DNA of 54,417 bases from a virus (lineage: Duplodnaviria > Caudoviricetes), in the IMG/VR virus record IMGVR_UViG_3300049893_000864, positions 1 through 54,417 of that record. The stretch is one strand, 5' to 3'. The position numbers and the translations under genes are program-made. Positions 28,284-40,744 of this stretch are shown here, in pieces (positions within the stretch are counted from its first letter, which is position 1; each line of letters begins with the position of its first letter). The notes beneath the pieces are model-generated. The model had not been told where the DNA came from. It was given only the letters and a program-made list of their open reading frames with translations, and did not search any database.

Positions 28284-28296
28284 GCCTATCGGTGGC

Positions 28297-28761: not shown

Positions 28762-28767
28762 CCCCAC

Positions 28768-28801
28768 AAAAGCAAGAGGCCCGCAGTGCACTGCGGGCCT
28801 C
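28768..28801 (-). terminator. Terminator hairpin
   Basis: Perfect palindrome gaggcccgcagtgcactgcgggcctc with a U-rich tail. Confidence 0.8.
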
Positions 28802-28908
28802 AACGACTCTCTAAGATTAACTAAACTGAAAAAGTTACATTAGCCCATCGGTGGCTCACCTCCGTGCGCCTATCTTAATTTGCTAATGATTAGCCTACAC
28901 TAGCGTAA

Positions 28909-29082: not shown

Positions 29083-29098
29083 TGCGACCCCCTATCGA

Positions 29099-29392: not shown

Positions 29393-29422
29393 TTGTTGCT
29401 CCGGTTGATTTACGATGATTGC

Positions 29423-29451
29423 ATTATCGCACAAGGGCGATTATTTGTCAA
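29423..29451 (-). promoter_or_regulatory. Early promoter repeat P5
   Basis: Identical to P4 over about 45 bp. Confidence 0.9.
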
Positions 29452-29460
29452 GTGGTCCGA

Positions 29461-29703
29461 TCAGGACTGATCGTATACCCATTCGCCCAATTGCGAGGCA
29501 AGTTCCGCCTCACGAGCGGGCCGAGCGTCCCGAATGTACGTTGCGAAGTCAAGGGAAACTTCCACCGTCGGCGCTGCCGTGTTGTCGAACGGGCCGAGGA
29601 CATTCTCGACCGTATCGACCATCGATTGCATCATCGACAGACACCCGCACAGCACGATGAACAATTCACCCGTTTCCCGCATCATGAATGTCCGAACAAA
29701 CAT
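29461..29703 (-). CDS. Hypothetical protein
   Basis: Sole gene of the P6 cassette; RBS ggag. Confidence 0.7.
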   Translation of the reverse strand: MFVRTFMMRETGELFIVLCGCLSMMQSMVDTVENVLGPFDNTAAPTVEVSLDFATYIRDARPAREAELASQLGEWVYDQS

Positions 29704-29735
29704 TTTTTGTACTCCGATTGATTTACGATGATTGC

Positions 29736-29764
29736 ATTATCGCACAAGGGCGATTATTTGTCAA
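29736..29764 (-). promoter_or_regulatory. Early promoter repeat P6
   Basis: Identical to P4/P5. Confidence 0.9.
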
Positions 29765-29767
29765 CCC

Positions 29768-30412
29768 CTAGAATCCCAGCGGGTCAGTCACGACCAATTG
29801 ATTGCCACGGCGAACCATCACATTACCATCGTGAAAGTCGAGATGGCGACCCGTAACACCGGCAATCTTGATAACCAATTGCATCATCTCAAGTTCACTT
29901 GCCGACGGCGTATAACTAGTACCGTAGGCACCATAATTGAACAAGTCCAGCATCGCCCGCTGGACACGCAAAAAATGAGTATACAGAGGGTGCTGAGGCT
30001 TGCGAGAATCCCAGTAGTTGCCATAACCCACAAGCGACTCCAACCGTTCCATCACGGCGATATACACATAACCTCGCACCGATCCGGTATCATCCACAAA
30101 CTCAACAACCCGAATTTCATGGATGCGAGGCAGCATGGGATTACACTTCGCCGTGCCGGTAGAATACACTTCCACGATCCAATTGAAGTAGCCATCGGTC
30201 GCCCGAGCGTTGCCGATCTTGAAAACCACGTTGCTATCTTTTTTGGCCCATGCTGAACCGAAGCAACCGTTTCCGAGCATTTTGAATTTGCTCTTTTTCA
30301 TTTGGCCCATGTAATACTCGTAGAAATCGGTGTTTACGTGGCAAGGCAAATGGACACGGTGTACCGACGTACACTTTTCGATCAGCGATTCAAGGGCGGC
30401 GGAAATTGCCAT
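29768..30412 (-). CDS. Ser/Thr protein kinase, T7 gp0.7-like (copy 1)
   Basis: LGNGCFGSAW Gly loop, VVFKIG Lys, DFHDGNVM catalytic loop, VTDP Mg-binding motif. Confidence 0.85.
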   Translation of the reverse strand: MAISAALESLIEKCTSVHRVHLPCHVNTDFYEYYMGQMKKSKFKMLGNGCFGSAWAKKDSNVVFKIGNARATDGYFNWIVEVYSTGTAKCNPMLPRIHEIRVVEFVDDTGSVRGYVYIAVMERLESLVGYGNYWDSRKPQHPLYTHFLRVQRAMLDLFNYGAYGTSYTPSASELEMMQLVIKIAGVTGRHLDFHDGNVMVRRGNQLVVTDPLGF

Positions 30413-30447
30413 GATGTTTCGGATTGATGTTGAATTACGATGTTTGC

Positions 30448-30476
30448 ATTATGCCGGATATTCGATTATTTGTCAA
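30448..30476 (-). promoter_or_regulatory. Early promoter repeat P7
   Basis: TTGACA-17-CATAAT; IHF-like box at 30485-30497. Confidence 0.88.
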
Positions 30477-30500
30477 CCCCTCCGTAAGTGATTGATCTAC

Positions 30501-30529
30501 AAAAGAAAAGGGCAGGGTCACACCCTGCC
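30501..30529 (-). terminator. Rho-independent terminator
   Basis: ggcagggt-cac-accctgcc followed by a U tract. Confidence 0.85.
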
Positions 30530-30539
30530 AGCTGTCAGA

Positions 30540-31307
30540 TTATGCTACCGGATCAGTAATGACCAGTTGACCATCGGCCCGCATCATCACGTTGCCCCCA
30601 TGAATGTCATTGCCTCGCCGGGTCCGCTTGATAACCGAGACAATCAATTGTACTGCCGCATCGAACGCTTTTTTGTGCTGCTGCATTGACTTCTCAATCA
30701 CAGCCTTGATTTTCTTATTCTGTGGGGCAACTACATCCTGCACTCCCATAAAACCGAGTTTCATCGGTGCAACAGCCCGCACTTTTGGCTTGCGAGGCTT
30801 GCGATTACGGCGAACCCGATCAACCTCGCTATCGATATGCCCGATAACGTCCATCGGATCATAGTCGGGAAATTCAGCGAGCCGTTCCATCACGACTACG
30901 TATCCCGACTCACGCTGGCCGTGAACGATACTGATGGAATGAATGATCGGCAGAAACGGATTGGATTTCGATTTCGGATCGGAAAAGACAGCATAAACCC
31001 AATTCAGGTATCCATCATTCTCATCCGCTCCACCGACCTTGTATACAAGGTTGTTGGATTTGTTCAGATACGCAGTCCCGAACACACCACTACCAAGTCG
31101 TTTGAATTTGAGTTTTCGAATCGTTGAATGGATAGCGTCAGCACCGTACTTTTCCAGCGGGACGTTGAAGTGTTCGATACCATCCCAGAGGAATTCCCGC
31201 CCGCCACGACGTGCCGAGTCGTAAGACCGATCATCTCGCCAATCATATATCTCGCCCCGCTCAATCCTACACTCGGTGCATGAACAATAATTCGAAACGG
31301 TACGCAC
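30540..31307 (-). CDS. Ser/Thr protein kinase, T7 gp0.7-like (copy 2)
   Basis: LGSGVFGTAY, VYKVG, YVVVMERL, DIHGGNVM, ITDPV; GTG start. Confidence 0.85.
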   Translation of the reverse strand: MRTVSNYCSCTECRIERGEIYDWRDDRSYDSARRGGREFLWDGIEHFNVPLEKYGADAIHSTIRKLKFKRLGSGVFGTAYLNKSNNLVYKVGGADENDGYLNWVYAVFSDPKSKSNPFLPIIHSISIVHGQRESGYVVVMERLAEFPDYDPMDVIGHIDSEVDRVRRNRKPRKPKVRAVAPMKLGFMGVQDVVAPQNKKIKAVIEKSMQQHKKAFDAAVQLIVSVIKRTRRGNDIHGGNVMMRADGQLVITDPVA

Positions 31308-31342
31308 GTTTGTTCCTATGGTTATTTGGATACGATGGAAGC

Positions 31343-31371
31343 ATTATGCCAGAGGGAGCATTATTTGTCAA
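31343..31371 (-). promoter_or_regulatory. Early promoter repeat P8
   Basis: TTGACA-17-CATAAT; perfect IHF box AATCAATGACTTA at 31380-31392. Confidence 0.88.
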
Positions 31372-31398
31372 CCCCTCTGTAAGTCATTGATTGTAAAC

Positions 31399-31424
31399 AA
31401 AAATAAAGGGGCCATTGGCCCCTT
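31399..31424 (-). terminator. Rho-independent terminator
   Basis: aaggggccattggcccctt followed by a U tract. Confidence 0.85.
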
Positions 31425-31451
31425 CTCTTGCCGGTAGGTTTTCCGGCGACC

Positions 31452-31583
31452 TTATTGTTTTGTTTCCTCGATTGCGTGAAGGAATTGGTAGTAGTCAACG
31501 AAGTCGAAGCTTCCACCATTTGCGATCACTCGCAGCATGTACGCTGCCAGATCAATCGCTTGCGCTTGAGTTAACTTGCTCAT
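31452..31583 (-). CDS. 43-aa hypothetical protein (not in ORF track)
   Basis: MSKLTQAQAIDLAAYMLRVIANGGSFDFVDYYQFLHAIEETKQ; RBS aagggg; fills the P9 cassette. Confidence 0.7.
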   Translation of the reverse strand: MSKLTQAQAIDLAAYMLRVIANGGSFDFVDYYQFLHAIEETKQ

Positions 31584-31621
31584 TCGTTTACCCCTTGTTC
31601 GTTTACGTTTACGATGATTGC

Positions 31622-31650
31622 ATTATGCCCTAGTCTCGATTATTTGTCAA
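31622..31650 (-). promoter_or_regulatory. Early promoter repeat P9
   Basis: TTGACA-17-CATAAT; IHF-like box at 31659-31671. Confidence 0.88.
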
Positions 31651-31677
31651 CCCCTCTGTAAGTGCCTGATTATAGAC

Positions 31678-31702
31678 AAAAAAAACCCAGCGTTGCGCTG
31701 GG
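31678..31702 (-). terminator. Rho-independent terminator
   Basis: cccagcg-ttg-cgctggg followed by U8. Confidence 0.85.
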
Positions 31703-31748
31703 CTAATGCCGATTCGGCGATTGTCAATCTGACCGACTACGTTTTGTT

Positions 31749-31940
31749 CTAGACAATCGTTTTAGCAGAAGAGTGGATGCGAAGGACGCATTCGATATAC
31801 TTTGCCACAAATTCATCACTCAACGGGCCGGGAATCTTATCCATCTCATCAATTGCCACGTTCATCAGCAATTGACATTCCAGAATGCCACGCTCGGCAC
31901 GGGACAAAATATTCAGCACGTCGGTTTCGTACTTTTTCAT
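31749..31940 (-). CDS. Hypothetical protein
   Basis: RBS aagga; sole gene of the P10 cassette. Confidence 0.7.
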   Translation of the reverse strand: MKKYETDVLNILSRAERGILECQLLMNVAIDEMDKIPGPLSDEFVAKYIECVLRIHSSAKTIV

Positions 31941-31968
31941 TTGAATGATCCTTGTTTACGATGGTGCT

Positions 31969-31997
31969 ATACTAGCACCATCGGGATTTATTGTCAA
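31969..31997 (-). promoter_or_regulatory. Early promoter P10, embedded in an 11-bp inverted repeat
   Basis: TTGACA-17-TAGTAT; cgatggtgcta-tac-tagcaccatcg at 31959-31983. Confidence 0.7.
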
Positions 31998-32722
31998 GCG
32001 GTCACTACCGCAACGGGAAACTTCACGAATCCCGTTTGATCTTTTTTCGCCTTGCCCTTTGCTTTCAGTCCGACGATAACGGGCCGAGGATCAAGGAAAC
32101 GCAAATCCGATTCGTCCCCATCGATAACCAGCAGACCATTATACGATTGCGGCAGACCATTGCCGAAAACCACGGCGACCGACATGCTGTTGTTGATCGC
32201 ATTCGTAACGTCAACGTCATTACCGTCGGCGGCAGAAAAAGTCAGATGGTAGTTAAGCGGCACATTGCGACCGGCAATCTTCGTATAATCGTAGAATTGC
32301 ACATCGGGAAACGCCGTCATGATGTTGCGAAACTCCACGCCATTGCGATAAACCCGAATCTTTTCAAATGCAATGTCTGACGTGCCGTTTAGACGAAAAA
32401 CCGGAGTCAGACCAAGCTTGGCAGATTGGCGCAGCGCCAATTCCACATCCTGAACCAATTGCGAAAGAAACAACGCACGTTGTTCGAAAAACATGCGAGT
32501 CTTGCGGATGCGAGCCTCTTGAATCGCATTAGTGTTTTCACCACGCTTGAACATACCGCCACGTCCGGCAATATTCAGACACGCAGCAGCGCAACCCGGA
32601 GTCGCTTTCGGGCACGTTTGATAGCCCGACAGCGTAGACGGCGCAAGGTGCAGAATGTAGGTATTGAAACCACGCACCATGCCCTTAACCGTTTTCGGAT
32701 TGCCAGTAGAGAGAAGCTTCAT
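31994..32722 (-). CDS. Gp88-family protein (Cys-cluster, radical-SAM-like)
   Basis: TCPKATPGCAAACL, RLNGTSDI, QFYDYTK, NYHLTFS, IDGDESDLRFLD, VGLKAKG. Confidence 0.8.
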   Translation of the reverse strand: MKLLSTGNPKTVKGMVRGFNTYILHLAPSTLSGYQTCPKATPGCAAACLNIAGRGGMFKRGENTNAIQEARIRKTRMFFEQRALFLSQLVQDVELALRQSAKLGLTPVFRLNGTSDIAFEKIRVYRNGVEFRNIMTAFPDVQFYDYTKIAGRNVPLNYHLTFSAADGNDVDVTNAINNSMSVAVVFGNGLPQSYNGLLVIDGDESDLRFLDPRPVIVGLKAKGKAKKDQTGFVKFPVAVVTA

Positions 32723-32755
32723 TTGTTTGTCCGGTTGATTGGATACGATGGAAGC

Positions 32756-32784
32756 ATTATGCCACAGAGGGGATTATTTGTCAA
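32756..32784 (-). promoter_or_regulatory. Early promoter repeat P11
   Basis: TTGACA-17-CATAAT; IHF-like box at 32793-32805. Confidence 0.88.
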
Positions 32785-33005
32785 CCCCTCGGTAAATCAC
32801 TGATTTCATTGAGATTATCAGGCATTGCCCCATGATAATCAATATACTCTGACAATTGATCGGAATCATATGCATCGATTCTCGTGAGATTGATACCGAT
32901 CAATTCCATTATTCTTGATGGCGAGAATCTATGATCCTCTGCTACCAATTGACCGTCGATGTAAAAACCTTGCCAATCATCGGCAACTACTAATGTGTAT
33001 GTCAT
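32781..33005 (-). CDS. Hypothetical protein, probably translated from a leaderless mRNA
   Basis: DDWQGFYIDGQLVAEDH; ATG lies 6 nt after the -10 box of P12. Confidence 0.75.
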   Translation of the reverse strand: MTYTLVVADDWQGFYIDGQLVAEDHRFSPSRIMELIGINLTRIDAYDSDQLSEYIDYHGAMPDNLNEISDLPRG

Positions 33006-33011
33006 GGAAGC

Positions 33012-33040
33012 ATTATGCCACAGAGGGGATTATTTGTCAA
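33012..33040 (-). promoter_or_regulatory. Early promoter repeat P12
   Basis: Identical to P11 over about 40 bp; IHF-like box at 33050-33062. Confidence 0.88.
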
Positions 33041-33070
33041 CCCCCTCTGTAAGTGTCTGATTTACAACGT

Positions 33071-33472
33071 CTATTCCAATGCCCGACGGTATTGTTGCTC
33101 GATGGGCCATGCTGCACGACGTTGATATGCAATCAATTTGCGTGGAGTCGTGGCGATGAAACCCAATTTAAATGCGCTATCGTCGCCCATCAAACCATCC
33201 CATTTACGAAAGAGAATTTTCTCATACCCGAATTGGGTAGCGGTCACGTCAACTACATAACCTTGCACGACACAAAACGCATGTCCACTGTTGATATTGA
33301 CAACAACATCGGGCACACCCGCCGCCTGTAACATTGACTGCAATTTGTATGCACACACGGCACACATGCAGCACATGTCCGACCATGCTCCATACCTGCG
33401 CCAATGAGCCTCGGCCCATTGGCGCACAACCGTAGCGACGCCTCGGACGAATTGCTGTGTTGATTTATTCAT
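33071..33472 (-). CDS. Putative transglutaminase/papain-fold protein
   Basis: Cys (MCAVCA), His (SGHAF) and Asp (VVDVTATQF) in the order of a C-H-D triad. Confidence 0.55.
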   Translation of the reverse strand: MNKSTQQFVRGVATVVRQWAEAHWRRYGAWSDMCCMCAVCAYKLQSMLQAAGVPDVVVNINSGHAFCVVQGYVVDVTATQFGYEKILFRKWDGLMGDDSAFKLGFIATTPRKLIAYQRRAAWPIEQQYRRALE

Positions 33473-33555
33473 CGTTGCGATCCTTCTCCACAGAGTAACC
33501 GTTGTAGCTGACCATCAGTTCAATCATTTCAATGTCCTTGTGTTAGTGTGAGGCT

Positions 33556-33584
33556 ATTATAGCCTCGTCCCGATTAAATGTCAA
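33556..33584 (-). promoter_or_regulatory. Early promoter P13
   Basis: TTGACA-17-TATAAT; palindrome gaggctattatagcctc over the -10 box. Confidence 0.85.
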
Positions 33585-33765
33585 TAGCCTCACACACGCT
33601 CGCCCGCTCAATGGTAAACGTCCATTCACACTTGCCCATGTACGTGTACGCCTCTTCGTTGGCCTTGCGGTAATGTTCCGCAACCGCATACGATTCGCAC
33701 GGTAGCACGAAAAATTCCTTACTTTCAGGCGCATCGCACTTGCCAATCAGCAGATAAATGAACAT
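33574..33765 (-). CDS. Hypothetical protein
   Basis: Sole gene of the P14 cassette; stop lies inside P13. Confidence 0.7.
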   Translation of the reverse strand: MFIYLLIGKCDAPESKEFFVLPCESYAVAEHYRKANEEAYTYMGKCEWTFTIERASVCEAIDI

Positions 33766-33794
33766 TGCTTATGTCCCTGTGTTAGTGTGAGTGC

Positions 33795-33823
33795 ATTATA
33801 GCAGTCGCCCGATTTATTGTCAA
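33795..33823 (-). promoter_or_regulatory. Early promoter P14
   Basis: TTGACA-17-TATAAT. Confidence 0.88.
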
Positions 33824-34095
33824 GCGACTGCGTTGCTTTCGTCGGCAAACCCGAGCATTTTGCTGAAGTAATCCGGTGCCCGATTCCGTACAAGCGCACG
33901 GAAATCCGCATCACTCAATTCCGGTTGCACTTGTGCAACCAGCACGGCCCGTGCGAAAGTTTCCAGCACGTCAGCCTTTATCGAGTACAGATAGTGATAT
34001 TCGCCCTGCTCTTGCACCTGCTTATTCAGTGCAGCAATCTTTGATTGAAACCACTTCTCCCGAACGGCTGGGTCATTGTGTTCAAGCTTGACCAT
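33820..34095 (-). CDS. Hypothetical protein
   Basis: Stop codon is the TGA of TTGACA. Confidence 0.7.
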   Translation of the reverse strand: MVKLEHNDPAVREKWFQSKIAALNKQVQEQGEYHYLYSIKADVLETFARAVLVAQVQPELSDADFRALVRNRAPDYFSKMLGFADESNAVA

Positions 34096-34097
34096 GA

Positions 34098-34292
34098 TTA
34101 ACCCAGCAGTTCATAAGTGATCGCACCGAACTCCGATTCGTGATCGAAGTATGCGAGCGTCTCGCCTCGACTATCAACAATCAAAACCGAGTCACCCTCG
34201 CCCGACTTAACGGATTGCTCCCGAGGGTTCATCACGTTGGCAACATCACGTTGCCAATCCCAATAATTTGTGTATTCCCGAGAGTTAAGCAT
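34098..34292 (-). CDS. Hypothetical protein
   Basis: First gene of the P15 cassette. Confidence 0.7.
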   Translation of the reverse strand: MLNSREYTNYWDWQRDVANVMNPREQSVKSGEGDSVLIVDSRGETLAYFDHESEFGAITYELLG

Positions 34293-34324
34293 GCTTGATT
34301 GATCCTTTACGATTGAATGGGTGC

Positions 34325-34353
34325 ATTATAGCACCTATTCGATTATTTGTCAA
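34325..34353 (-). promoter_or_regulatory. Early promoter P15
   Basis: TTGACA-17-TATAAT; IHF-like box at 34362-34374. Confidence 0.9.
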
Positions 34354-34380
34354 CCCCCTCGTAAGTGCCTGATTTTAGGC

Positions 34381-34406
34381 AATAAAAAGGGCCGCATGCG
34401 GCCCTT
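34381..34406 (-). terminator. Rho-independent terminator
   Basis: aagggccgcatgcggccctt followed by a U tract. Confidence 0.85.
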
Positions 34407-34432
34407 GCTGGTAGGATTGATCCAGCTACCCT

Positions 34433-34675
34433 TTACATGCCCATCGCTCGCACTTGCTTGCGAAGCTTGATTTGTGCGGGGGTGTGTTCAACCTTGATAG
34501 TCTGTCCATCTTTCACGCACCACGCAATGTCGTGCGAGTAGACCGATCCAATCTCAGTCTCGAACCCGTACACTTTTGCGATTCGGGTATTGCCTCGGGC
34601 GTTGTCGAAAATTTCTGCTGTCCAACCATTACTGAGAATGACTTGATCGCCCTTTTTCAGTTCGTTTGTGAACAT
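34433..34675 (-). CDS. Conserved phage hypothetical protein (SH3-like)
   Basis: TNELKKG...DNARGNTR..KVYG..TEIGSVYSHDI. Confidence 0.8.
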   Translation of the reverse strand: MFTNELKKGDQVILSNGWTAEIFDNARGNTRIAKVYGFETEIGSVYSHDIAWCVKDGQTIKVEHTPAQIKLRKQVRAMGM

Positions 34676-34703
34676 CGCTATGTCCTTGTGTTAGTGTGAG
34701 TGC

Positions 34704-34733
34704 ATTATAAAGCAAAAAGGGGATTGTTGTCAA
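34704..34733 (-). promoter_or_regulatory. Early promoter P16, overlapped by a terminator hairpin
   Basis: TTGACA-18-TATAAT; hairpin aaaggggattg-ttgt-caatccccttt at 34716-34741. Confidence 0.75.
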
Positions 34734-34903
34734 TCCCCTTTGTAAGTCCTTGTTTTACCAGCCGATTCGCCGCTTGATTGCATTCACCCTTCGTTTAGCG
34801 CCGAGGACTTCGAACAATCCTAGCGGCTTTCGCTTGCCCGCTTGTGCTATTCGCAGTGCCCGCTTCGCTCGGTCTAGTTGCCCTTTAAGTATCTTCGCCT
34901 TGT

Positions 34904-35191
34904 TCAAACGGCCACCTTTGTCATCTTGATGAACTTGACAGCCCATGCACTAAGGTTGTATTCCTTGCCCGTGCGCTTGCTTGTCATCTTCACGAAACCA
35001 TCGTTCGCCGGTTTCAGTTGGCGAGTGATCATGCGATCACCCACCTTAAGCCGCTTGGGTGCGGCACGTTTCACCAGTTCGACCAGTTCACGGTCCCGGA
35101 CGAATTCCGGGAGTCGCATCACTTCAAACTCCAGCGCCGGTTGTACTTGACGCAAATGATCGAAGTTCGCAGTAAATTCCGCTGCTTTCAT
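34904..35191 (-). CDS. Basic hypothetical protein
   Basis: Co-oriented ORF in the P17 cassette. Confidence 0.7.
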   Translation of the reverse strand: MKAAEFTANFDHLRQVQPALEFEVMRLPEFVRDRELVELVKRAAPKRLKVGDRMITRQLKPANDGFVKMTSKRTGKEYNLSAWAVKFIKMTKVAV

Positions 35192-35193
35192 GA

Positions 35194-35367
35194 TTAAAAC
35201 CCCAATGCCTTGTGAATCGGGAGGAAACGACCAGTGCCTTCTTCACGAAACGCACCATTGACCACTTCGTATTCCACACACTTGCTCGGACGCTTCATCG
35301 CCATCTTCATACCACGAAGCCCCTTACCCACTGCCAAATTCAACGTCTTTTCCTTGCGCTTACGCAT
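35194..35367 (-). CDS. 57-aa basic hypothetical protein (not in ORF track)
   Basis: MRKRKEKTLNLAVGKGLRGMKMAMKRPSK...; RBS aaggag; first gene after P17. Confidence 0.7.
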   Translation of the reverse strand: MRKRKEKTLNLAVGKGLRGMKMAMKRPSKCVEYEVVNGAFREEGTGRFLPIHKALGF

Positions 35368-35394
35368 TTGTTGCTCCTTTTTGACTGTGAATGT

Positions 35395-35423
35395 ATTATA
35401 CCACCGTGGGGATTATTTGTCAA
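35395..35423 (-). promoter_or_regulatory. Early promoter P17
   Basis: TTGACA-17-TATAAT. Confidence 0.9.
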
Positions 35424-35427
35424 CCCC

Positions 35428-35601
35428 TTACAGGCAATTCACAATACGAGGGAAAATATGAAAGCCAAGATGGTTCCTATCACTCTCGAACTTCGCTTGT
35501 TCAGCGGCGAGGGTCGCAGTTGCGTACAAACCAAAATTTACTTCTTCGTCAAAATCATCGTAACCGACAAGTTCGTACACAACCAAATTACGCTTATTCA
35601 T
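35428..35601 (-). CDS. Hypothetical protein
   Basis: Start reassigned to MNKRN (RBS aagga). Confidence 0.65.
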   Translation of the reverse strand: MNKRNLVVYELVGYDDFDEEVNFGLYATATLAAEQAKFESDRNHLGFHIFPRIVNCL

Positions 35602-35710
35602 GTTGATCCTTTTGAAGTTGAACCTTCGCCGCCCGACGTTGCGCCTTGCGGGTCTTACCATGTGCGCCCGCCTTGCGCTTGACGACAAATTTTACTAGAT
35701 AGTTACGCAT
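35594..35710 (-). CDS. 38-aa very basic peptide
   Basis: MRNYLVKFVVKRKAGAHGKTRKAQRRAAKVQLQKDQHE; RBS taagg. Confidence 0.65.
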   Translation of the reverse strand: MRNYLVKFVVKRKAGAHGKTRKAQRRAAKVQLQKDQHE

Positions 35711-35736
35711 GTTGCACCTTATTACAGAACATAAGA

Positions 35737-35829
35737 GATTCACGAAGGTTCGCCTATATTGAATCAATAGGGTGTGGCAGTGACACACTCATCTTGGCCT
35801 TCGCCTTGATGCCTACTTCAACGTGAATC
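35737..35829 (-). ncRNA. Candidate structured leader/small RNA (4-way junction)
   Basis: Closing stem GAUUCACG/CGUGAAUC encloses three hairpins; starts a few nt after the P18 start site. Confidence 0.55.
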
Positions 35830-35840
35830 AATATGGGAGT

Positions 35841-35869
35841 ATTATGCCTTAATTCGGATTATTTGTCAA
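35841..35869 (-). promoter_or_regulatory. Early promoter P18
   Basis: TTGACA-17-CATAAT; IHF-like box at 35878-35890. Confidence 0.88.
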
Positions 35870-35899
35870 CCCCCTCGCAAGTACCTGATTTTAGGCAAC

Positions 35900-35936
35900 A
35901 AAAAAGGGTGCTGGCGATAAAGCGCCTGCACCCTTT
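35900..35936 (-). terminator. Rho-independent terminator
   Basis: agggtgcaggcg-ctttat-cgccagcaccct followed by U6 (minus strand). Confidence 0.85.
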
Positions 35937-36322
35937 CTTGCCCTTCCTCGCACAGCTTGCGATTGTGTGGGTCAGTTGTGAGTTACCAGATGTTCCACGC
36001 TTTCGCTCCCATCCAGCCTCACCTAGAGAACGGCCCCATTCGTCCGCCGGGTCTGCAAACCACTTCAGCCTTGATTCTCTTGCAGGAGAACCACGACCTA
36101 GCCCTATTCATAACTCTTTTTTATTTACTTCCCTAGACTACTTTTTATCATCAACTACGTTCGGGCATTCGCCCTTGCCGATCCTTAGTGCGTATGTTCT
36201 TCGTCAGTGTGAAGTAACCGCTAAAAGCACACCCTCATCAGTTATGGCTTGCCTTCCGCCAAATGCCGCCTACGCAACGGAAACTGGACTTAACCTGCCA
36301 GCACTCAGGTTGTTTCTCAATG
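35900..36322 (-). ncRNA. Candidate ~420-nt non-coding RNA with its own promoter and terminator
   Basis: Bounded by P19 and a strong terminator; the only ATG-started sense ORF of note is 30 aa with a poor RBS; many hairpins. Confidence 0.6.
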
Positions 36323-36327
36323 GTTGT

Positions 36328-36356
36328 ATTATGCCTTAATTCCTATTTATTGTCAA
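36328..36356 (-). promoter_or_regulatory. Early promoter P19 (drives the candidate ncRNA)
   Basis: TTGACA-17-CATAAT. Confidence 0.88.
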
Positions 36357-36615
36357 TAGGTGCAGCTTGGGGTTTGAAGTTTCGAACCTTCAGCTACCAA
36401 GTCTAGTCGCACACTTGTTCGCATTCCGCTCTTGCCCTTGCAAGCCTAGACTCTACACCCTTGTTAGGGCAGGATTGCTCTAGTCAGCTTCGCTCGATGC
36501 GCTCAAGCTTAATGTGCCGCTTGCCATGCCAAGCTACCTGCACCTAACTTGATTGTCAATAGGGGCAGCTTGGGGCTTTCGCCGGGTCAAGCCTTCAACC
36601 CCAAGCTACCTGCAC
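36349..36615 (-). repeat. Two tandem stem-bounded elements sharing 15-nt and 24-nt terminal repeats
   Basis: ccaagctacctgcac at 36529-36543 and 36601-36615; attgtcaatagg(t/g)gcagcttgggg at 36349-36372 and 36552-36575; the two repeats are mutually complementary. Confidence 0.85.
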
Positions 36616-36625
36616 ACATTACACC

Positions 36626-36979
36626 TTAGTCCGCTTGTGCCCACAAGTACAGACCAACGTTCGCATTCTTCGTAAACCCGACCTTGATGTTGTCCTTTCG
36701 CATTTGGAAACACATGGTCAGGTTGCCGTTCACGGGCAGCAGTTCGTAACCCTTCTTGAGGAACACGTCAACTACTGAAGCTTCGGCCTGATGCTGCGCT
36801 TGCCACGATCCTTCGTGCCAAACGGCATCGAAACCCGTCGCAGCTTCACCCTTAACTTCGGCACCGAGACTCAGAAGAGTATCCGCAATATCCATGAGTT
36901 GTTGCTCGGTCTTAACTTCGGCACTCGGTGCCTTTTGTTCGATCAGTTGCTTCGTCACTTTCGTTCCTTGTTCGTTCAT
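36626..36979 (-). CDS. Hypothetical protein
   Basis: ATG 9 nt after the -10 box of P20 (near-leaderless). Confidence 0.75.
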   Translation of the reverse strand: MNEQGTKVTKQLIEQKAPSAEVKTEQQLMDIADTLLSLGAEVKGEAATGFDAVWHEGSWQAQHQAEASVVDVFLKKGYELLPVNGNLTMCFQMRKDNIKVGFTKNANVGLYLWAQAD

Positions 36980-36988
36980 CGTTTGAGT

Positions 36989-37017
36989 ATTATGCCATAA
37001 AGGGGATTATTTGTCAA
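36989..37017 (-). promoter_or_regulatory. Early promoter P20
   Basis: TTGACA-17-CATAAT; IHF-like variant at 37027-37039. Confidence 0.88.
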
Positions 37018-37042
37018 CCCCCTTCGTAAGTCCTTGTTTTGC

Positions 37043-37312
37043 TTACTTAATCAGGCCCAGACTTGCTTCAAGCGAGTCAAACAGTCGCTGGCATTCTACC
37101 ACCAACGACAGCAGTTCTTCGCCGCTGGAAGAGGATTCTTCTGCATTTGCGGCCACTTGGCCCTTGAGGTTCGCTTGAGAGAACTGGAACACTTCATTGA
37201 TTAGCGCCTGTGCTTCCATTACCAGATCAAGAGCATCTGTCAGATTGTCACACGCCTGATCCATTTTCTCCACCTGTTCCCGGATTGCTTCTGCCTTCTT
37301 ATTCATGTTCAT
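37043..37312 (-). CDS. Acidic helical hypothetical protein
   Basis: Co-oriented ORF. Confidence 0.7.
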   Translation of the reverse strand: MNMNKKAEAIREQVEKMDQACDNLTDALDLVMEAQALINEVFQFSQANLKGQVAANAEESSSSGEELLSLVVECQRLFDSLEASLGLIK

Positions 37313-37318
37313 TACCTT

Positions 37319-37657
37319 TTAACCGATAGTGGCAAGTGTTGCCACAATATACGCTTCAATCTGAGCAGTTTCATCTTCAGTGAAGTTTTCGATGCCCACA
37401 CCGAGACGTGCGTTGACTGCCAGCTTGAGCAGCTTGTTCGCATCGTTAACCATGTCGGACACTCGCTTGAACGCTTCAATCACCGCTTGTGCGTCCGCTC
37501 GCACCATGTCATCCTTAGTGCCTTCCTCGTTGTCCTTCGTCGCCTCACTCATGATGCGATCAAGCGTATCACGATCCACCTTTGTCATATATCCCTTCGC
37601 CGTCTTATTGAGCGCATCTTCCACCCATGCGTCAAACGTAGTCAGTATTGTACTCAT
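37319..37657 (-). CDS. Acidic helical hypothetical protein
   Basis: Co-oriented ORF. Confidence 0.75.
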   Translation of the reverse strand: MSTILTTFDAWVEDALNKTAKGYMTKVDRDTLDRIMSEATKDNEEGTKDDMVRADAQAVIEAFKRVSDMVNDANKLLKLAVNARLGVGIENFTEDETAQIEAYIVATLATIG

Positions 37658-37659
37658 TG

Positions 37660-37992
37660 TTAGCCCATCGGGTTTACACGCCGAAGAATGCTATCAACGT
37701 TTTCGAATGCATCGAATTCTGCGTCAGCGTTGAGCGCCGGATCGACATGAAACGTGACATGCAAGGCTTCGTCTTGTTGATCGAACATACACGTAAATCC
37801 CATCGTTCCCATGTGCTCGATCTCTTTGTTGTTCAACGCTTCAATGATAAAACCAATGATAGCATCAAACACTCTTTGCCTTACGACTTCCTTGCGTTGA
37901 TGGAAGAAGTAAATGTTGTTGTCCGCAATGTAGTTTTGTGTGCGTTCCAGTTGTTCCATCGAACAAACAATGCGCCTGTTGCCTTCGTTCAT
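37660..37992 (-). CDS. Hypothetical protein
   Basis: First gene after P21; RBS aagga. Confidence 0.7.
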   Translation of the reverse strand: MNEGNRRIVCSMEQLERTQNYIADNNIYFFHQRKEVVRQRVFDAIIGFIIEALNNKEIEHMGTMGFTCMFDQQDEALHVTFHVDPALNADAEFDAFENVDSILRRVNPMG

Positions 37993-38027
37993 ATCTTAGT
38001 TCCTTCGTTCGTTGTACGATATGAAGT

Positions 38028-38056
38028 ATTATGTCACAATTCGGATTATTTGTCAA
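38028..38056 (-). promoter_or_regulatory. Early promoter P21
   Basis: TTGACA-17-CATAAT. Confidence 0.88.
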
Positions 38057-38288
38057 CCCCCTTAGCTTCCTCATTCCTTGATCCCTTCGGTCGCCCTTTG
38101 GAGGCACTTCGTACACCAATACCTTTGAGCCTTTCGATTATTTCTTCGCTTATTGCATCTTGGAGACACGTCATACACCAATACACTGTTTTGTCCGAAT
38201 CAAGACACACTTCGATCACATAATCTTCGTCGCCACATTCTTGACACTTGGGAGTAACCTTCGTTTCGTTCATATTCATATCACTCAT
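38046..38288 (-). CDS. Small Zn-finger protein (paralogue A)
   Basis: CQECGDEDYVIEV...YWCMTCLQ; ends GVDK*. Confidence 0.7.
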   Translation of the reverse strand: MSDMNMNETKVTPKCQECGDEDYVIEVCLDSDKTVYWCMTCLQDAISEEIIERLKGIGVRSASKGRPKGSRNEEAKGVDK

Positions 38289-38427
38289 CTTCGCCCGCCG
38301 CCCTTTGGAGGCACTTCATACACCAGTACATTACTTCACCTGAATCGAATTCCACTTCGATCACATAATCTTCGTCGCCACACTCTTCGCACTTGGGTCT
38401 TACACTCGTTTTCTCGTTCATATTCAT
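38281..38427 (-). CDS. Small Zn-finger protein (paralogue B)
   Basis: CEECGDEDYVIEV...YWCMKCLQ; start reassigned. Confidence 0.65.
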   Translation of the reverse strand: MNMNEKTSVRPKCEECGDEDYVIEVEFDSGEVMYWCMKCLQRAAGEDE

Positions 38428-38802
38428 CACCTTAAAGTTGTACAATTTTTGTACAGTTGTCATAGACAAACTTGCATTATTTTGAGGGTTTAACAAACCT
38501 TCCACGTAGGGTAGTACCAGAACGTGCAAAAACTCGAGTTTTGCCTTTTTTTTCCCTATGAGAAAAATCTAATTAATCTCGGTTTTGGCCTTTTCCTCGG
38601 GCTTTTCGCCAGCCCTTCGGTCACTTCATGCACCATTTGGGTGCATGTTAGCCTTGTCCGCTTGTGTAGTCCTCCACCGCCTTAACGCCCGCCCGAATCA
38701 GCGGCTTGATCCACTCGTACAGGTTGATTACACCAACGCTTACAACAATCGCAAGTAGCATGCTTACTGTCAATTGTGCCATACCCAAAAAGAATGCATC
38801 GA

Positions 38803-38985
38803 TCACTTCGGTTCTCCCGTATCTTGTCGCCTCTTGGTGTCACTTGTGACCGCACGTTGACGATCACCTTGCCACGGTTGTTCGTGTACGAATGCGATCA
38901 CGCCCGCAAACACGATTGCACTACCTAGCCATAGGTATGCAGTCACCTTTGAAATGTATTCAGTCAAATCCTTGAACGCCTTCAT
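38803..38985 (-). CDS. Small membrane protein
   Basis: One TM helix; RBS aaggag. Confidence 0.6.
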   Translation of the reverse strand: MKAFKDLTEYISKVTAYLWLGSAIVFAGVIAFVHEQPWQGDRQRAVTSDTKRRQDTGEPK

Positions 38986-39034
38986 CGCTTCACACTCCTT
39001 CAGTGCATCTTATACGTTCGCCGCCTTGATGCGA

Positions 39035-39277
39035 TCAAACGTCACAGGGCTTACCATCATCGACCACCTTTTGCGCTTTATGTCGCACTACAATGCGGTC
39101 AACTAGATCATTGATTTGATCGAGCCTGTTATAGATGCGGTCAACCTCGATGTGTGTCTCGCCTTCAACGTTCTCTGCCATTGCATCCTTGATCGCACAG
39201 ATCGCATCATACAGATGCGATGCAGCTTCCCTTAGATACCTTACTTGTTTGCTTGGTGGTTGTGTCATTCGATACAC
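39035..39277 (-). CDS. Hypothetical protein
   Basis: Co-oriented ORF. Confidence 0.65.
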   Translation of the reverse strand: MYRMTQPPSKQVRYLREAASHLYDAICAIKDAMAENVEGETHIEVDRIYNRLDQINDLVDRIVVRHKAQKVVDDGKPCDV

Positions 39278-39501
39278 CCTCGTTGTTTGCCATCGATCAT
39301 TAGACGTGGCGTTAGTGTTCCAGAACTTCCGACGAGATACTCACACTTGGTTTGTGGATCAATGCGGACGTCCACTTCGCCCGAGCGTGTGAACAGCAAG
39401 TATAGTAGATAACACAAAAAGACAAGCAATCCCGCCAAGATGATTGGGATGATTACCGAAAATGCATTATCCATAAAATCAAAAAATCGATTGGTATTCA
39501 T
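39265..39501 (-). CDS. Membrane-anchored DUF6440-like protein
   Basis: TM helix followed by IDPQTKCEYLVGSSGTLTPRLMIDGK. Confidence 0.65.
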   Translation of the reverse strand: MNTNRFFDFMDNAFSVIIPIILAGLLVFLCYLLYLLFTRSGEVDVRIDPQTKCEYLVGSSGTLTPRLMIDGKQRGCIE

Positions 39502-39516
39502 AGTTTACCTCGTTGT

Positions 39517-39774
39517 TTAGACTTGACCCGCTTCTAAATCCCATTGCACTGCCGCCGACTTGATTTCTTCAAGAGAGCAACTTGCTCGCAGGATTTGTTC
39601 ATGTACCGCACGGTTGATCCGCTTACCGTCAAACGTGGTAATATCAACATCACCCTTTTGCCGCCAATCCGGTTGTTCAATCACCACTTCAATTGATGGT
39701 TCCGGTTGATCGTTCCACTTCACGGAAATAAACGCACCAACCTTCACAACCTTCGACAGTTCCTTCTTATTCAT
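39517..39774 (-). CDS. Hypothetical protein
   Basis: First gene after P22; RBS aaggag. Confidence 0.7.
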   Translation of the reverse strand: MNKKELSKVVKVGAFISVKWNDQPEPSIEVVIEQPDWRQKGDVDITTFDGKRINRAVHEQILRASCSLEEIKSAAVQWDLEAGQV

Positions 39775-39800
39775 ATAGACACTCCTTCACGTAACGCCAT

Positions 39801-39829
39801 AGTATAGCATAATTAGCATTATTTGTCAA
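39801..39829 (-). promoter_or_regulatory. Early promoter P22
   Basis: TTGACA-17-TATACT. Confidence 0.85.
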
Positions 39830-40052
39830 CCCCTTCGGCATCGGGTGTAGTGATTGAATCAAGCGCCGCCGCTATGTTTGCGGTGTTTCCATCTTTTATG
39901 TATCGATAGTGTATCACTTGATGCGCTCGGCGCAGCGTTAGTACGATCAAATGATTCATACATACGTCCCAAAACTCTGGTTCATCTTCGTCGTAGAAGA
40001 TTGATGCCCACTCTTTTGCTTCTTCAATCAACTCTTTGCACTGTCTATTCAT
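39819..40052 (-). CDS. Hypothetical protein (paralogue of the next gene)
   Basis: ELIEEAKEWASIFYDEDEPEF; ends GVDK*; start reassigned. Confidence 0.7.
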   Translation of the reverse strand: MNRQCKELIEEAKEWASIFYDEDEPEFWDVCMNHLIVLTLRRAHQVIHYRYIKDGNTANIAAALDSITTPDAEGVDK

Positions 40053-40275
40053 CTTCTTCCTCCCGACTGCTAGTGATTGAATCAATCGCCACTGTTAGAC
40101 TTGGTGCGTTCTCACCTTGCGCTATGTTTCGATCAATTACGTACTTCACATGTTGCAGTGTTAGTTCGATCACACACTTGGCGACTTCATCAATAAACTC
40201 TGGTTCATCCTTATCGTAGAAAACTGATGCCCACTCTTTTGCTTCTTCAATCAACTGCTTTTGCACTTCGTTCAT
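40045..40275 (-). CDS. Hypothetical protein (paralogue)
   Basis: QLIEEAKEWASVFYDKDEPEF; RBS gagga. Confidence 0.7.
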   Translation of the reverse strand: MNEVQKQLIEEAKEWASVFYDKDEPEFIDEVAKCVIELTLQHVKYVIDRNIAQGENAPSLTVAIDSITSSREEEDE

Positions 40276-40285
40276 TTTGATCCTC

Positions 40286-40744
40286 TCATTCTGGCCTTTT
40301 CCCTAGTGCTATACCTAAATCGTATTCATCGAATATGATGAATTCCCAGTTTTGCTTCTTCGCCCACTTTTCTGCTGCTTCCCATTTTGCTTGATTGACC
40401 GCATATTCCGCTGCTTCATTCAAGTATCGTTTAGTCAATCTTGATCGCATCACCGGCACCTTTCGTTTAACCCACGGTTTGACTTCCACTAATGCTGTTC
40501 TTATTCGATTATCTTTGTCTTTCCACTTCATTACGAAATCCACAAAATACCTATGCGGCTTATTATCCAATGGCGATATGTATGGTATTGCCATTTCTTC
40601 AGATGCCCAGTTTATTACATTTGGTGATTCGTCCAACCATATCATTAGCTTTAGTTCCCAAGAACTGCGATATACGATATTATTTGTTGAACCCACATAT
40701 TTCGACGGGTTCTTTGGTTTGAATTTTCCCTGATGGAATTTCAT
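40286..40744 (-). CDS. gp4: Head completion nuclease gp4 (TnsA-like fold)
   Basis: GKFKPKNPSKYVG, YRSSWE, WASEE..IPYISP.D...HRYFVDF, VEVKP, VNQAKWEAA. Confidence 0.95.
   Translation of the reverse strand: MKFHQGKFKPKNPSKYVGSTNNIVYRSSWELKLMIWLDESPNVINWASEEMAIPYISPLDNKPHRYFVDFVMKWKDKDNRIRTALVEVKPWVKRKVPVMRSRLTKRYLNEAAEYAVNQAKWEAAEKWAKKQNWEFIIFDEYDLGIALGKRPE

What the first reader, a model, noticed from the sequence alone, without database searches (positions are those of the whole stretch)
35900..36356. Stand-alone ~420-nt non-coding RNA transcribed from an early promoter cassette
Seen: every other cassette in the island holds a protein gene with an RBS. This one runs from a consensus promoter (36328-36356) to a strong terminator (35900-35936) with no credible sense ORF; the best is a 30-aa ORF, MNRARSWF..., with a weak RBS. 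The minus-strand RNA is rich in hairpins (AACCUG/CAGGUU, UUCCG/CGGAA, GUGUG/CACAC, GGGC-GAAU-GCCC, GGUUCUC/GAGAAUC, GC-GAAA-GC) around a central A-rich linker. I could not match it to tRNA, tmRNA, RNase P, 6S or group I/II intron signatures. Inference: an early, abundant, structured phage RNA, possibly a decoy or scaffold acting against host defence or translation.
Basis: partly seen in the sequence, partly recalled or inferred. Interest (0 to 1): 0.85.

Follow-up and report, generated by a model that had tools for sequence, protein, structure and literature searches.

The report
Gene-less early promoter cassette in phage
One early promoter-to-terminator unit in this T4-like phage fragment carries no gene and should yield a roughly 425-base untranslated RNA, but nothing shows that this RNA is specially folded, conserved or functional.

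Summary
The unit is real. It has a near-consensus sigma-70 promoter (36356-36328, minus strand) and about 385 nt with no ORF over 30 aa. No codon-usage signal appears in any of six frames. It ends in the strongest hairpin+U terminator of the island (35940-35899, -31.5 kcal/mol). In a 16-kb island with 46 predicted genes, this is the only ORF-free gap over 230 nt (938 nt).

The "hairpin-rich structured RNA" reading is not supported. The MFE z-score is -1.03 with the terminator and +0.59 without it. The hairpin count is 17, against 15.8±3.9 in shuffles. Rfam and ARAGORN found nothing.

No homologue exists in any collection I could search; the phage is a singleton, with best gp4 identity of 58%. 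Covariation therefore cannot be tested.

The island is built of PeSL-like promoter/stem-loop modules known from T4-type phages. This unit keeps the module's leader, but with a mutated Shine-Dalgarno and no start codon.

Best reading: a gene-less PeSL cassette that is transcribed and probably a recombination relic (0.40). Rivals are a functional unstructured RNA (0.30) and an R-loop origin or control region (0.15).

The parts
36328..36356 (-). Sigma-70-type early promoter P36356 (TTGACA-17-CATAAT). Predicted start near 36321 (inferred as 7 nt after the -10).
   Evidence: 11 of 12 matches., D1: 84% identical over 37 nt to the next promoter at 35833-35869; aligned with 20 other island promoters.
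36342..36360 (-). Palindromic stem-loop CCTATT...AATAGG overlapping the -35. It sits where most sister promoters carry GGGG...CCCC.
   Evidence: D3. CCTATTGA occurs 3 times within 810 bp here, out of 5 in the 54-kb window.
36290..36327 (-). Vestigial leader, homologous to the canonical leader gcaatcatcgtaaatcaaccGGAGcaacaaATG. Here the Shine-Dalgarno reads TGAG and there is no start codon at the canonical distance.
   Evidence: 21 leaders aligned by eye., D1 (60% identity over 60 nt to 29392-29451).
35941..36289 (-). Untranslated body: GC 50.5%, 60% purine on the RNA strand (figures computed over 35937-36320), with no coding signal in six frames and no excess structure.
   Evidence: No paralogue in the window. 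No Pfam, PHROG or protein-library hit for read-through frames.
36096..36170 (-). A-rich, purine-rich, AT-rich linker: 24% GC in the 50-mer at 36105, which ties for the lowest in the island.
   Evidence: 99.4-99.6th percentile of island 60-nt windows.
36019..36111 (-). 30-aa ORF MNRARSWF..., judged not to be a gene.
   Evidence: The anti-SD duplex is -0.9 kcal/mol against a median of -5.8 for 29 island genes. Codon score is -0.204; no in-frame 30-codon window of the island genes scores that low.
35893..35940 (-). Intrinsic terminator: 18-nt arms, 6-nt loop, U-tract. It is the first half of a terminator+promoter module.
   Evidence: -31.5 kcal/mol; I1; z -3.4; 35833-35907 is 84% identical to 34317-34391; five or six sister modules.
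35841..35869 (-). Next promoter P35869 (canonical GGGGGTTGACAAATAAT type). It drives a ~125-nt leader, then the 38-aa ORF 35710..35594 and the 57-aa gene 35601..35428.
36357..36625 (-). Upstream ORF-free stretch (3' of the 117-aa gene). It holds two exact 15-mers GTGCAGGTAGCTTGG (36615-36601 and 36543-36529) and two 23-mers CCCAAGCTGC[A/C]CCTATTGACAAT (36574-36552 and 36371-36349). The 23-mers are imperfect complements of the 15-mers. The second 23-mer supplies the -35 of P36356; the first carries a decayed promoter (TTGACA-17-TAGCTT).
   Evidence: D2, D5, I4, I5. Fold z -2.39, with 1 of 200 shuffles as good.
35833..36339 (+). Antisense 168-aa open frame. It is on record as a predicted protein but is a composition artefact.
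   Evidence: only itself in 5.8 billion proteins. (codon score -0.18, like five other antisense open frames in the island). (no family). There is no SD before its ATG, which lies inside the promoter repeat.

Best explanation
This is a gene-less member of the phage's own family of early promoter/stem-loop cassettes, which resemble the PeSLs of T4-type phages.

Inferred from sequence: host sigma-70 RNA polymerase starts near 36321 and stops at the hairpin+U-tract at 35940-35893. This releases an untranslated, purine-rich RNA of about 425 nt early in infection.

Shown: the unit has no gene and no more predicted structure than shuffled sequence.

Inferred origin: recombination between the repeated promoter/terminator modules left a promoter with the stump of a coding leader in front of non-coding DNA. 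On this view the RNA is a by-product, not a folded effector. The terminator is still needed, because it also ends the transcript of the upstream 117-aa gene and insulates the next cassette.
For: (1) The promoter, stem-loop, leader and terminator all belong to repeated module families of the island.

(2) The first ~24 nt after the -10 match the canonical coding leader at 17 positions (my count on the print). However, the SD is GGAG->TGAG and the start codon at the canonical distance is missing.

(3) Two further decayed copies of the same CCTATTGA-type promoter lie nearby. One is at 36563-36543, with a -10 of TAGCTT. The other is at 35771-35753, with TTGATT and a dead -10, sitting 57 nt before the start of the 38-aa ORF. 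This neighbourhood therefore shows module turnover.

(4) The promoter is 84% identical over 37 nt to the next one, including an identical 17-mer (GAATTAAGGCATAATAC; my reading of the D1 and one search prints). That is as expected from exchange between modules.

(5) There is no excess of RNA structure, no Rfam family, no enrichment of GGA or GGG motifs, and no complementarity to the rest of the window beyond the modules.

(6) In RB49/phi1, crossovers between PeSLs were mapped between the -10 and the ATG or SD. That is exactly where this leader loses its likeness (PMC2839356, passages read).
Against: No frame keeps any codon-usage signal: the maximum is +0.06 against 0.04-0.42 for genes. The stop distribution is random-like. 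No protein homologue exists for the read-through frame tested or the antisense ORF. So the body is not a recently decayed gene.

The island is tightly packed: 46 predicted genes, and all other gaps are <=229 nt. A 938-nt non-coding gap is therefore a clear outlier, and one would expect it to be deleted if useless.

The promoter is 11/12 consensus and the terminator is the strongest of six.

Body GC (50.5%) has not drifted towards the 35-42% of the rest of the record.

The A-rich and purine-rich tract is extreme for the island.

Lack of homologues is uninformative here, because the neighbouring 117-aa protein has none either and no island gene has a match in the 80 relative loci.
Confidence: 0.4

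Rival explanations
1. It is a functional early non-coding RNA, carried as the cargo of a PeSL-type cassette. It would act through sequence or single-stranded tracts rather than a compact fold. Examples: a decoy or sponge for a host RNA-binding protein, RNase or RNA-sensing defence, or an antisense regulator of a target in the unseen three quarters of the genome.
For: It is a complete unit with a consensus promoter and the strongest terminator. It is the only long non-coding gap in a dense island of 46 genes. It has no trace of former coding. Its A-rich, purine-rich linker is in the top 0.5% of island windows. It lies in a host-takeover island with two paralogous matches to the PHROG family annotated as a protein kinase that inhibits host transcription and regulates RNase III and RNase E. 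Virulent phages are known to make ncRNAs of unknown function: PAK_P3 sRNA1 and sRNA2, and T4 band C and D RNAs (PMC4933390, passages read).
Against: There is no thermodynamic signal, no known family, no motif enrichment, and no complementary target in the window. No homologue exists, so no conservation or covariation can be shown. The vestigial coding leader suggests descent from a protein cassette.
Confidence: 0.3
2. It is a cis-acting DNA region, with the transcript as only a means. One version is a transcription-primed (R-loop) replication origin of the T4 kind: promoter, purine-rich transcript, AT-rich unwinding element. Another is a control region whose repeated palindromes and boxes bind a regulator.
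For: [quoted passage not shown] T4 origins tend to lie near points of transcriptional divergence (PMC3016281, passages read). Here there is an early promoter and an RNA-strand tract of 73% purine and 70% AT, 170-220 nt downstream. The 938-bp ORF-free region contains three CCTATTGA palindromes, two 15-mers and two 23-mers. A divergence point (gp4-like on the minus strand, baseplate genes on the plus strand) lies 4.4 kb away.
Against: The AT-rich tract is not directly downstream of the promoter as in the ~100-bp minimal oriF and oriG. [quoted passage not shown] Cumulative GC skew shows no turn here. The repeats are equally well explained as decayed copies of one promoter module.
Confidence: 0.15
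3. The unit encodes one or more micropeptides: the 30-aa ORF 36111..36019, translated from the unstructured A-rich tract without an SD, or the 9-aa ORF 36012..35983, which has a good SD.
For: The ATG of the 30-aa ORF directly follows the A-rich tract. The 9-aa ORF has an anti-SD duplex of -7.9 kcal/mol, in the upper range of real genes.
Against: The 30-aa ORF has an SD duplex of -0.9 against a median of -5.8. Its codon score is -0.204, below every in-frame 30-codon window of the island genes. No family or homologue was found. It lies 210 nt from the transcript start, whereas 19 of 21 cassettes start translation within about 40 nt of the -10.
Confidence: 0.07
4. The plus-strand 168-aa ORF 35833..36339, which a gene caller has on record, is the real gene.
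For: It is the only long open frame, and it is held as a predicted protein in the protein collection.
Against: Its codon score of -0.18 is like that of five other antisense open frames in the island, which score -0.03 to -0.10. It has no SD, and its ATG lies inside the promoter repeat. It has no family and no homologue. The plus strand is pyrimidine-rich and therefore poor in stop codons.
Confidence: 0.02

Closest known systems
PeSL (promoter-early stem-loop) cassettes of T4-type phages RB49/phi1, PST and nt-1 (PMC2839356, passages read; PMC4122927, abstract read)
   Same: Strong sigma-70-like promoters are repeated in a hyperplastic region full of ORFans. Stem-loops, often GGGG...CCCC, overlap the -35, lie between -35 and -10, overlap the -10, or lie upstream as terminators. 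A Shine-Dalgarno and start codon follow at the 3' end. The homology runs over about 60-100 bp, enough for recombination.
   Different: This unit has no ORF. Its stem-loop is CCTATT/AATAGG rather than GGGG/CCCC, and its SD and start codon are lost. The modules share no sequence with RB49's, so the likeness is of architecture only. In the passages I read, no gene-less PeSL cassette is described: a term search of PMC2839356 for 'no ORF', 'noncoding', 'non-coding' and 'pseudogene' found 0 occurrences.
T4 replication origins oriF and oriG (promoter plus DUE, R-loop primed) and oriE (early promoter, iterons) (PMC3016281, passages read)
   Same: A promoter-driven untranslated transcript, an AT-rich tract downstream, an early-mode promoter as at oriE, and a location in a T4-like genome near a point of transcriptional divergence.
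   Different: The AT-rich tract lies ~170-220 nt from the start, not adjacent to the promoter. There are no 12-nt evenly spaced iterons. No MotA-type promoter was looked for. No function was tested. The primary oriE paper could not be read.
Small RNAs of virulent phages with unknown function: PAK_P3 sRNA1 and sRNA2, T4 band C and D RNAs (PMC4933390, passages read)
   Same: Intergenic, ORF-less, strongly transcribed units of lytic phages with no Rfam family.
   Different: Those are ~100 nt, late (PAK_P3), and seen by RNA-seq. This one is ~425 nt, predicted to be early, and known from sequence alone.
phi29 pRNA and the RNase III-processed T7 early transcripts (recalled; no call)
   Same: Untranslated RNA or RNA hairpins made from early host-polymerase promoters.
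   Different: There is no match to any Rfam model, which should include pRNA. T4-like phages are not known to use a packaging RNA. The irregular long hairpin that could be an RNase III site lies upstream at 36357-36625, not in the finding.

Membership tests
Any Rfam 15 family (riboswitch, ribozyme, 6S, RNase P, group I/II intron, GOLLD/ROOL, CsrB-type, and others) | Score at or above the family's gathering threshold | tested here: not met
   0 matches in the whole window; at E<=10 there were 3 chance-level matches in 35300-37000. None was in the body; one (E 9.6) sat on the terminator hairpin.
tRNA / tmRNA | Cloverleaf or tmRNA detected by ARAGORN | tested here: not met
   0 genes in the window. 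A T-loop-like GGTTCGAAAC at 36388-36379 lies upstream of the promoter.
PeSL-type cassette (T4-type phages) | Strong sigma-70-like promoter repeated in intergenic positions of an ORFan-rich hyperplastic region | tested here: met
   21 promoters; 46 small genes; most have no family or homologue.
PeSL-type cassette (T4-type phages) | Stem-loop next to or overlapping the promoter, and/or an upstream terminator hairpin | tested here: met
   CCTATT/AATAGG around the -35. Terminator+promoter modules.
PeSL-type cassette (T4-type phages) | Shine-Dalgarno and start codon of a downstream ORF at the 3' end of the module | tested here: not met
   GGAG->TGAG and no start codon; no ORF.
PeSL-type cassette (T4-type phages) | Demonstrated promoter and terminator activity, and recombination (mini-circles) | not testable with these tools
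   This needs reporter assays and inverse PCR on infected cells.
Structured functional ncRNA (generic) | Folding energy below that of shuffled sequence | tested here: not met
   z -1.03; body z +0.59; hairpin count at chance.
Structured functional ncRNA (generic) | Conservation with compensatory base changes in homologues | not testable with these tools
   No homologue was found in INPHARED, plasmids, IMG/VR, metagenome contigs or genome contigs.
T4 oriF/oriG-type R-loop origin | Promoter with an A+T-rich unwinding element immediately downstream (about 100 bp minimal origin) | tested here: inconclusive
   The promoter is present. The extreme AT-rich tract exists but lies 170-220 nt downstream.
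T4 oriE-type origin | [quoted passage not shown] | tested here: not met
   only pairs of 15-, 19- and 30-nt repeats, and no evenly spaced iterons.
Protein-coding gene or recent pseudogene | Open frame with SD, codon-usage signal, or protein homologues of a read-through frame | tested here: not met
   (no Pfam or PHROG at E<=0.1; the two listed matches have E 0.31 and 0.35). (0 of 1.84 billion representatives at E<=0.001, for the frame with the fewest stops only).

The most novel reading that the evidence does not exclude
A PeSL-type mobile cassette whose cargo is an RNA rather than a protein. On this reading, an abundant ~425-nt early transcript, largely unstructured and purine/A-rich, takes part in host takeover. 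It could act as a decoy or sponge for a host RNA-binding factor, RNase or RNA-sensing defence, or as the R-loop primer of an early replication origin. That would extend modular shuffling in T4-type phages from ORFans to non-coding RNA genes.
Probability: 0.3. Interest if true: 0.6.

Novelty: new variant of a known kind. Interest (0 to 1): 0.3.

Why it matters
If the RNA or the DNA region is functional, it would be a rare non-coding element in the early host-takeover region of a virulent T4-like phage. It would also show that promoter/stem-loop cassettes can move RNA genes or origins as well as ORFans. If it is a relic, it is a snapshot of cassette turnover: a live promoter and terminator around dead cargo, with two decayed sister promoters beside it. 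It also serves as an annotation warning, because the antisense 168-aa frame is on record as a protein. As it stands, the sequence gives no positive evidence of RNA function, and the phage is an uncultured singleton, so the claim cannot be advanced without new data.

Tried and rejected
Known RNA families: Rfam at gathering thresholds on the whole window and at E<=10 on 35300-37000, plus ARAGORN. Nothing was found.

Alternative genetic code: three frames were inspected with the stop types marked. No single reassignment opens a frame, and all three stops are used by island genes.

Pseudogene test: the three read-through frames (stops as X) were scanned against PHROGs and Pfam. Nothing better than E 0.31 appeared. 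The frame with the fewest stops was searched against 1.84 billion representatives and gave 0 hits. The other two frames were not searched there.

Antisense 168-aa ORF: no family, only itself among 5.8 billion proteins, and a codon score like other antisense frames.

Paralogues or antisense targets in the window: blastn with word size 7 and tblastx found only the promoter/terminator modules.

Tandem duplication of the two post-box segments: local alignment score 23 against 22.6±3.4 in shuffles. Rejected.

CsrA-type (GGA) and G-cluster enrichment: 8 against 11.0±2.6, and 8 against 11.7±3.5. Rejected.

None was supported.

Homologue hunting:
- blastn 'distant' against 50,697 phage records and 72,556 plasmids: no match.
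- Flanking proteins in IMG/VR: no relative.
- The island's promoter word in IMG/VR (53 stretches, each with one match) and in metagenome contigs (30 stretches, each with one match). None is related to the island by blastn or tblastx. One locus, L026, shares a distant protein match at 45.3-47.3 kb only.
- The 117-aa neighbour: only itself.
- gp4-like protein: best non-self identity is 58% among 4977 hits. Over 895 kb, blastn gave nothing better than E 0.77, nhmmer gave nothing at E<=10, and tblastx of 24000-40300 gave nothing at E<=1e-5.
- Three exact 22-24-nt probes from the body: 0 matches in IMG/VR and in genome contigs.
The window's own record may be left out of these collections, so there was no positive control.

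I did not build a covariance model, because there was only one sequence. I did not use structure prediction, complex prediction, read laying or the protein atlas, because they have no bearing on this question. Supplements of the PeSL and PAK_P3 papers were not seen; they may list PeSL positions or sRNA sequences relevant to the comparison.
Full report
CONTEXT. The window is one whole IMG/VR virus record of 54,417 b, estimated 26% complete. It encodes T4-type baseplate, hub and tail-fibre proteins, a gp4-like head completion protein, two RNA ligases and a polynucleotide kinase. It is remote from every sequenced phage: 24-34% identity for two baseplate proteins. The best non-self identity of the conserved gp4-like protein is 58% among 4977 hits in 5.8 billion proteins.

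Between about 24 and 40.3 kb lies a minus-strand island of higher GC (46-51% against 35-42%). It holds 46 predicted small genes, most without any family. Two of them are paralogues, 33% identical to each other. Both match the PHROG family annotated as a protein kinase that inhibits host transcription and regulates RNase III and RNase E.

THE OBSERVATION. The promoter at 36356-36328 is TTGACA-17-CATAAT, 11 of 12 matches. It is one of 21 closely similar minus-strand promoters. The terminator has 18-nt arms at 35899-35916 and 35923-35940, 89% complementary, with a 6-nt loop and then a T-run. It folds at -31.5 kcal/mol, the strongest of six such modules, and gives local z-scores of -3.4 and -3.1. 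The simple terminator scan did not list it; its stem has one A.A mismatch.

Between promoter and terminator, the longest sense ORF is 30 aa. The three frames carry 4, 9 and 13 stops of mixed type, and island genes use all three stop codons. No recoding therefore rescues a frame. A codon-usage log-odds trained on 30 island genes gives +0.04 to +0.42 for real genes in frame. It never exceeds +0.06 in any minus frame between 36690 and 35790. With an all-frames background, all six frames of the body score negative.

The 30-aa ORF has a poor Shine-Dalgarno: -0.9 kcal/mol, against a median of -5.8 for 29 genes. Its codon score of -0.204 is below every in-frame 30-codon window of real genes. The plus-strand 168-aa open frame that spans the unit is on record as a predicted protein. 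It behaves like the other antisense open frames of this pyrimidine-rich plus strand, and it has no family or homologue. So the ORF-less transcription unit is confirmed.

It is also exceptional. 19 of 21 promoters are followed by a start codon within about 40 nt of the -10. The ORF-free gap it sits in (36626 to 35688, 938 nt) is the only one over 229 nt in the island.

WHAT IS NOT CONFIRMED. There are 17 stems of >=5 bp against 15.8±3.9 in 500 dinucleotide shuffles, and 7 stems of >=6 bp against 5.9±2.5. The body MFE z-score is +0.59. The whole RNA including the terminator gives z -1.03. Only the windows that contain the terminator are significant. Rfam gives nothing at gathering thresholds and nothing meaningful at E<=10. 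ARAGORN finds nothing.

COMPARATIVE EVIDENCE: NONE AVAILABLE. The region has no match in phage records or plasmids. Its flanking proteins have no relatives in IMG/VR, and the 117-aa neighbour has none in 5.8 billion proteins. The island's promoter word occurs only as single, unrelated hits in IMG/VR and in metagenome contigs. Among 80 loci (895 kb) around gp4 homologues of other T4-like viruses, nothing resembles the region or any island gene. Three exact probes from the body found nothing. The read-through of the least-interrupted frame has no relative among 1.84 billion representative proteins.

ANATOMY THAT BEARS ON ORIGIN. The island has the architecture described for PeSLs in T4-type phages (PMC2839356, passages read; PMC4122927, abstract read). 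PeSLs have strong sigma-70-like promoters. Their stem-loops are often GGGG...CCCC and can sit over the -35, between the boxes, over the -10, or upstream as terminators. A Shine-Dalgarno and start codon follow, and the modules mediate recombination in hyperplastic regions.

Here, many promoters read GGGG(G)TTGACAAATAATCCCC. Others carry different complementary arms in the same places. Five or six are preceded by a hairpin+T-run and a conserved linker.

P36356 is a variant in several respects:
- Its arms are CCTATT/AATAGG.
- Its 3' half is shared with the next promoter (84% over 37 nt).
- The first ~24 nt of its transcript match the canonical coding leader at 17 positions (my count), but the SD is TGAG and no start codon follows.
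- Two more decayed copies of the CCTATTGA-type module lie nearby. One is 203 nt upstream, as box 36574-36552 with TTGACA-17-TAGCTT. The other is at 35771-35753, at the canonical 57-nt distance from the start of the 38-aa ORF 35710..35594.

In RB49/phi1, crossovers between PeSLs were mapped between the -10 and the SD or ATG. That is where this leader stops resembling the others. This is the basis of my preferred reading: a cassette left without a gene by module-mediated recombination, still transcribed.

WHAT SPEAKS FOR FUNCTION. The body shows no remnant of coding, so it is not a fresh pseudogene. It keeps island-like GC. It is a large outlier in a compact island. Its control signals are intact. 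It has a central tract in the top ~0.5% of island windows for A, purine and AT content. Two functional readings fit these facts.

The first is an RNA that works through unstructured sequence, as a decoy, sponge or antisense. Virulent phages do make ncRNAs of unknown role (PMC4933390).

The second is a DNA-level element. T4 oriF and oriG are a promoter plus an AT-rich unwinding element that holds an R-loop. T4 oriE uses an early promoter. T4 origins tend to lie near transcriptional divergence (PMC3016281). Here the divergence point is 4.4 kb away. Against the origin reading, the AT-rich tract is 170-220 nt from the start rather than adjacent, there are no oriE-like iterons, and GC skew shows no turn.

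The upstream 269 nt (36357-36625) is more remarkable for structure than the finding itself. Two exact 15-mers and two 23-mers pair with each other in alternative ways. The fold gives z -2.39, with 1 of 200 shuffles as good. This part is transcribed only by read-through from P37017.

VERDICT. The odds are: gene-less PeSL-type cassette, transcribed and probably a relic, 0.40; functional unstructured early RNA, 0.30; cis-acting origin or control region, 0.15; micropeptide, 0.07; plus-strand gene, 0.02; something else, the rest.

The promoter, terminator, absence of coding and uniqueness in the island are shown. Transcription, timing, abundance and any function are inferred. Relative to what is known, it is a new variant (no ORF) of a known kind of cassette. 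Interest is moderate to low (0.3), because every positive test for RNA function that could be run came back at chance, and the decisive tests need data that do not exist in the collections searched.

Noticed in passing
window 36357-36625 (minus strand): Two exact copies of GTGCAGGTAGCTTGG (36615-36601, 36543-36529) and two copies of CCCAAGCTGC[A/C]CCTATTGACAAT (36574-36552, 36371-36349) can pair in alternative combinations. The stretch folds with z -2.39. It could be an RNase III-type processing hairpin, an attenuator-like switch on the read-through transcript, or duplicated promoter modules.
   Followed up: partly
window 26874-39829 (minus strand): 21 near-identical sigma-70 promoters carry complementary arms in varying positions. 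Five or six hairpin+T-run+promoter modules sit at 35940-35841, 34406-34325, 31704-31622, 31425-31343, 30529-30448 and about 28800-28733. The hairpin sequences differ but the flanks are conserved. This is a PeSL-like architecture in a phage far from RB49.
   Followed up: partly
window 35753-35771, 36342-36360, 36543-36563: Three copies of a palindromic motif CCTATTGA...TCAA..TAGG lie within 810 bp; CCTATTGA occurs only 5 times in 54 kb. They could be operator-like sites or decayed copies of one promoter variant.
   Followed up: partly
window 35594-35834 (minus strand): Promoter P35869 has an unusually long leader (~125 nt) with a 12-aa upstream ORF. A very basic 38-aa ORF follows (35710..35594, SD AAGGTG), and its end overlaps the start of the 57-aa gene 35601..35428.
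   Followed up: partly
window 33005 and 36979 (minus strand): Two cassettes appear leaderless or nearly so. The ATG of the 74-aa ORF 33005..32781 lies 6 nt after the -10 of P33040. The ATG of the 117-aa ORF lies 9 nt after the -10 of P37017.
   Followed up: no
window 29768-30412 and 30540-31307 (minus strand): Two adjacent paralogues, 33% identical to each other. Both match the PHROG family annotated as a protein kinase that inhibits host transcription and regulates RNase III and RNase E. Each has its own promoter.
   Followed up: partly
window 35833-36339 (+); also 35212-35682, 37648-38223, 28913-29470, 29732-30256 (+): Long antisense open frames arise on the pyrimidine-rich plus strand of the island. 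The one over the finding is held as a predicted protein in the public protein collection, which is a likely mis-annotation.
   Followed up: yes
window 38143-38411 and 39848-40285: Tandem duplications: 124-nt units 75% identical (38143-38266 and 38288-38411), and two adjacent 76/77-aa genes with 80%-identical 91-nt segments (39972-40062 and 40195-40285).
   Followed up: no
window 50036-53112 (minus strand): A cluster of RNA ligase 1-like, RNA ligase 2-like and polynucleotide kinase genes, which is the T4-type tRNA repair set.
   Followed up: no
window 36379-36388 (minus strand): A T-loop-like GGTTCGAAAC sits at the tip of a hairpin just upstream of the promoter. It is the only copy in the window, with 0.09 expected by chance. 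ARAGORN calls no tRNA.
   Followed up: partly
window 24000-40300 against the rest: There is a sharp GC step: 46-51% in the island against 35-42% elsewhere. This suggests the early island has a different history from the structural modules.
   Followed up: no
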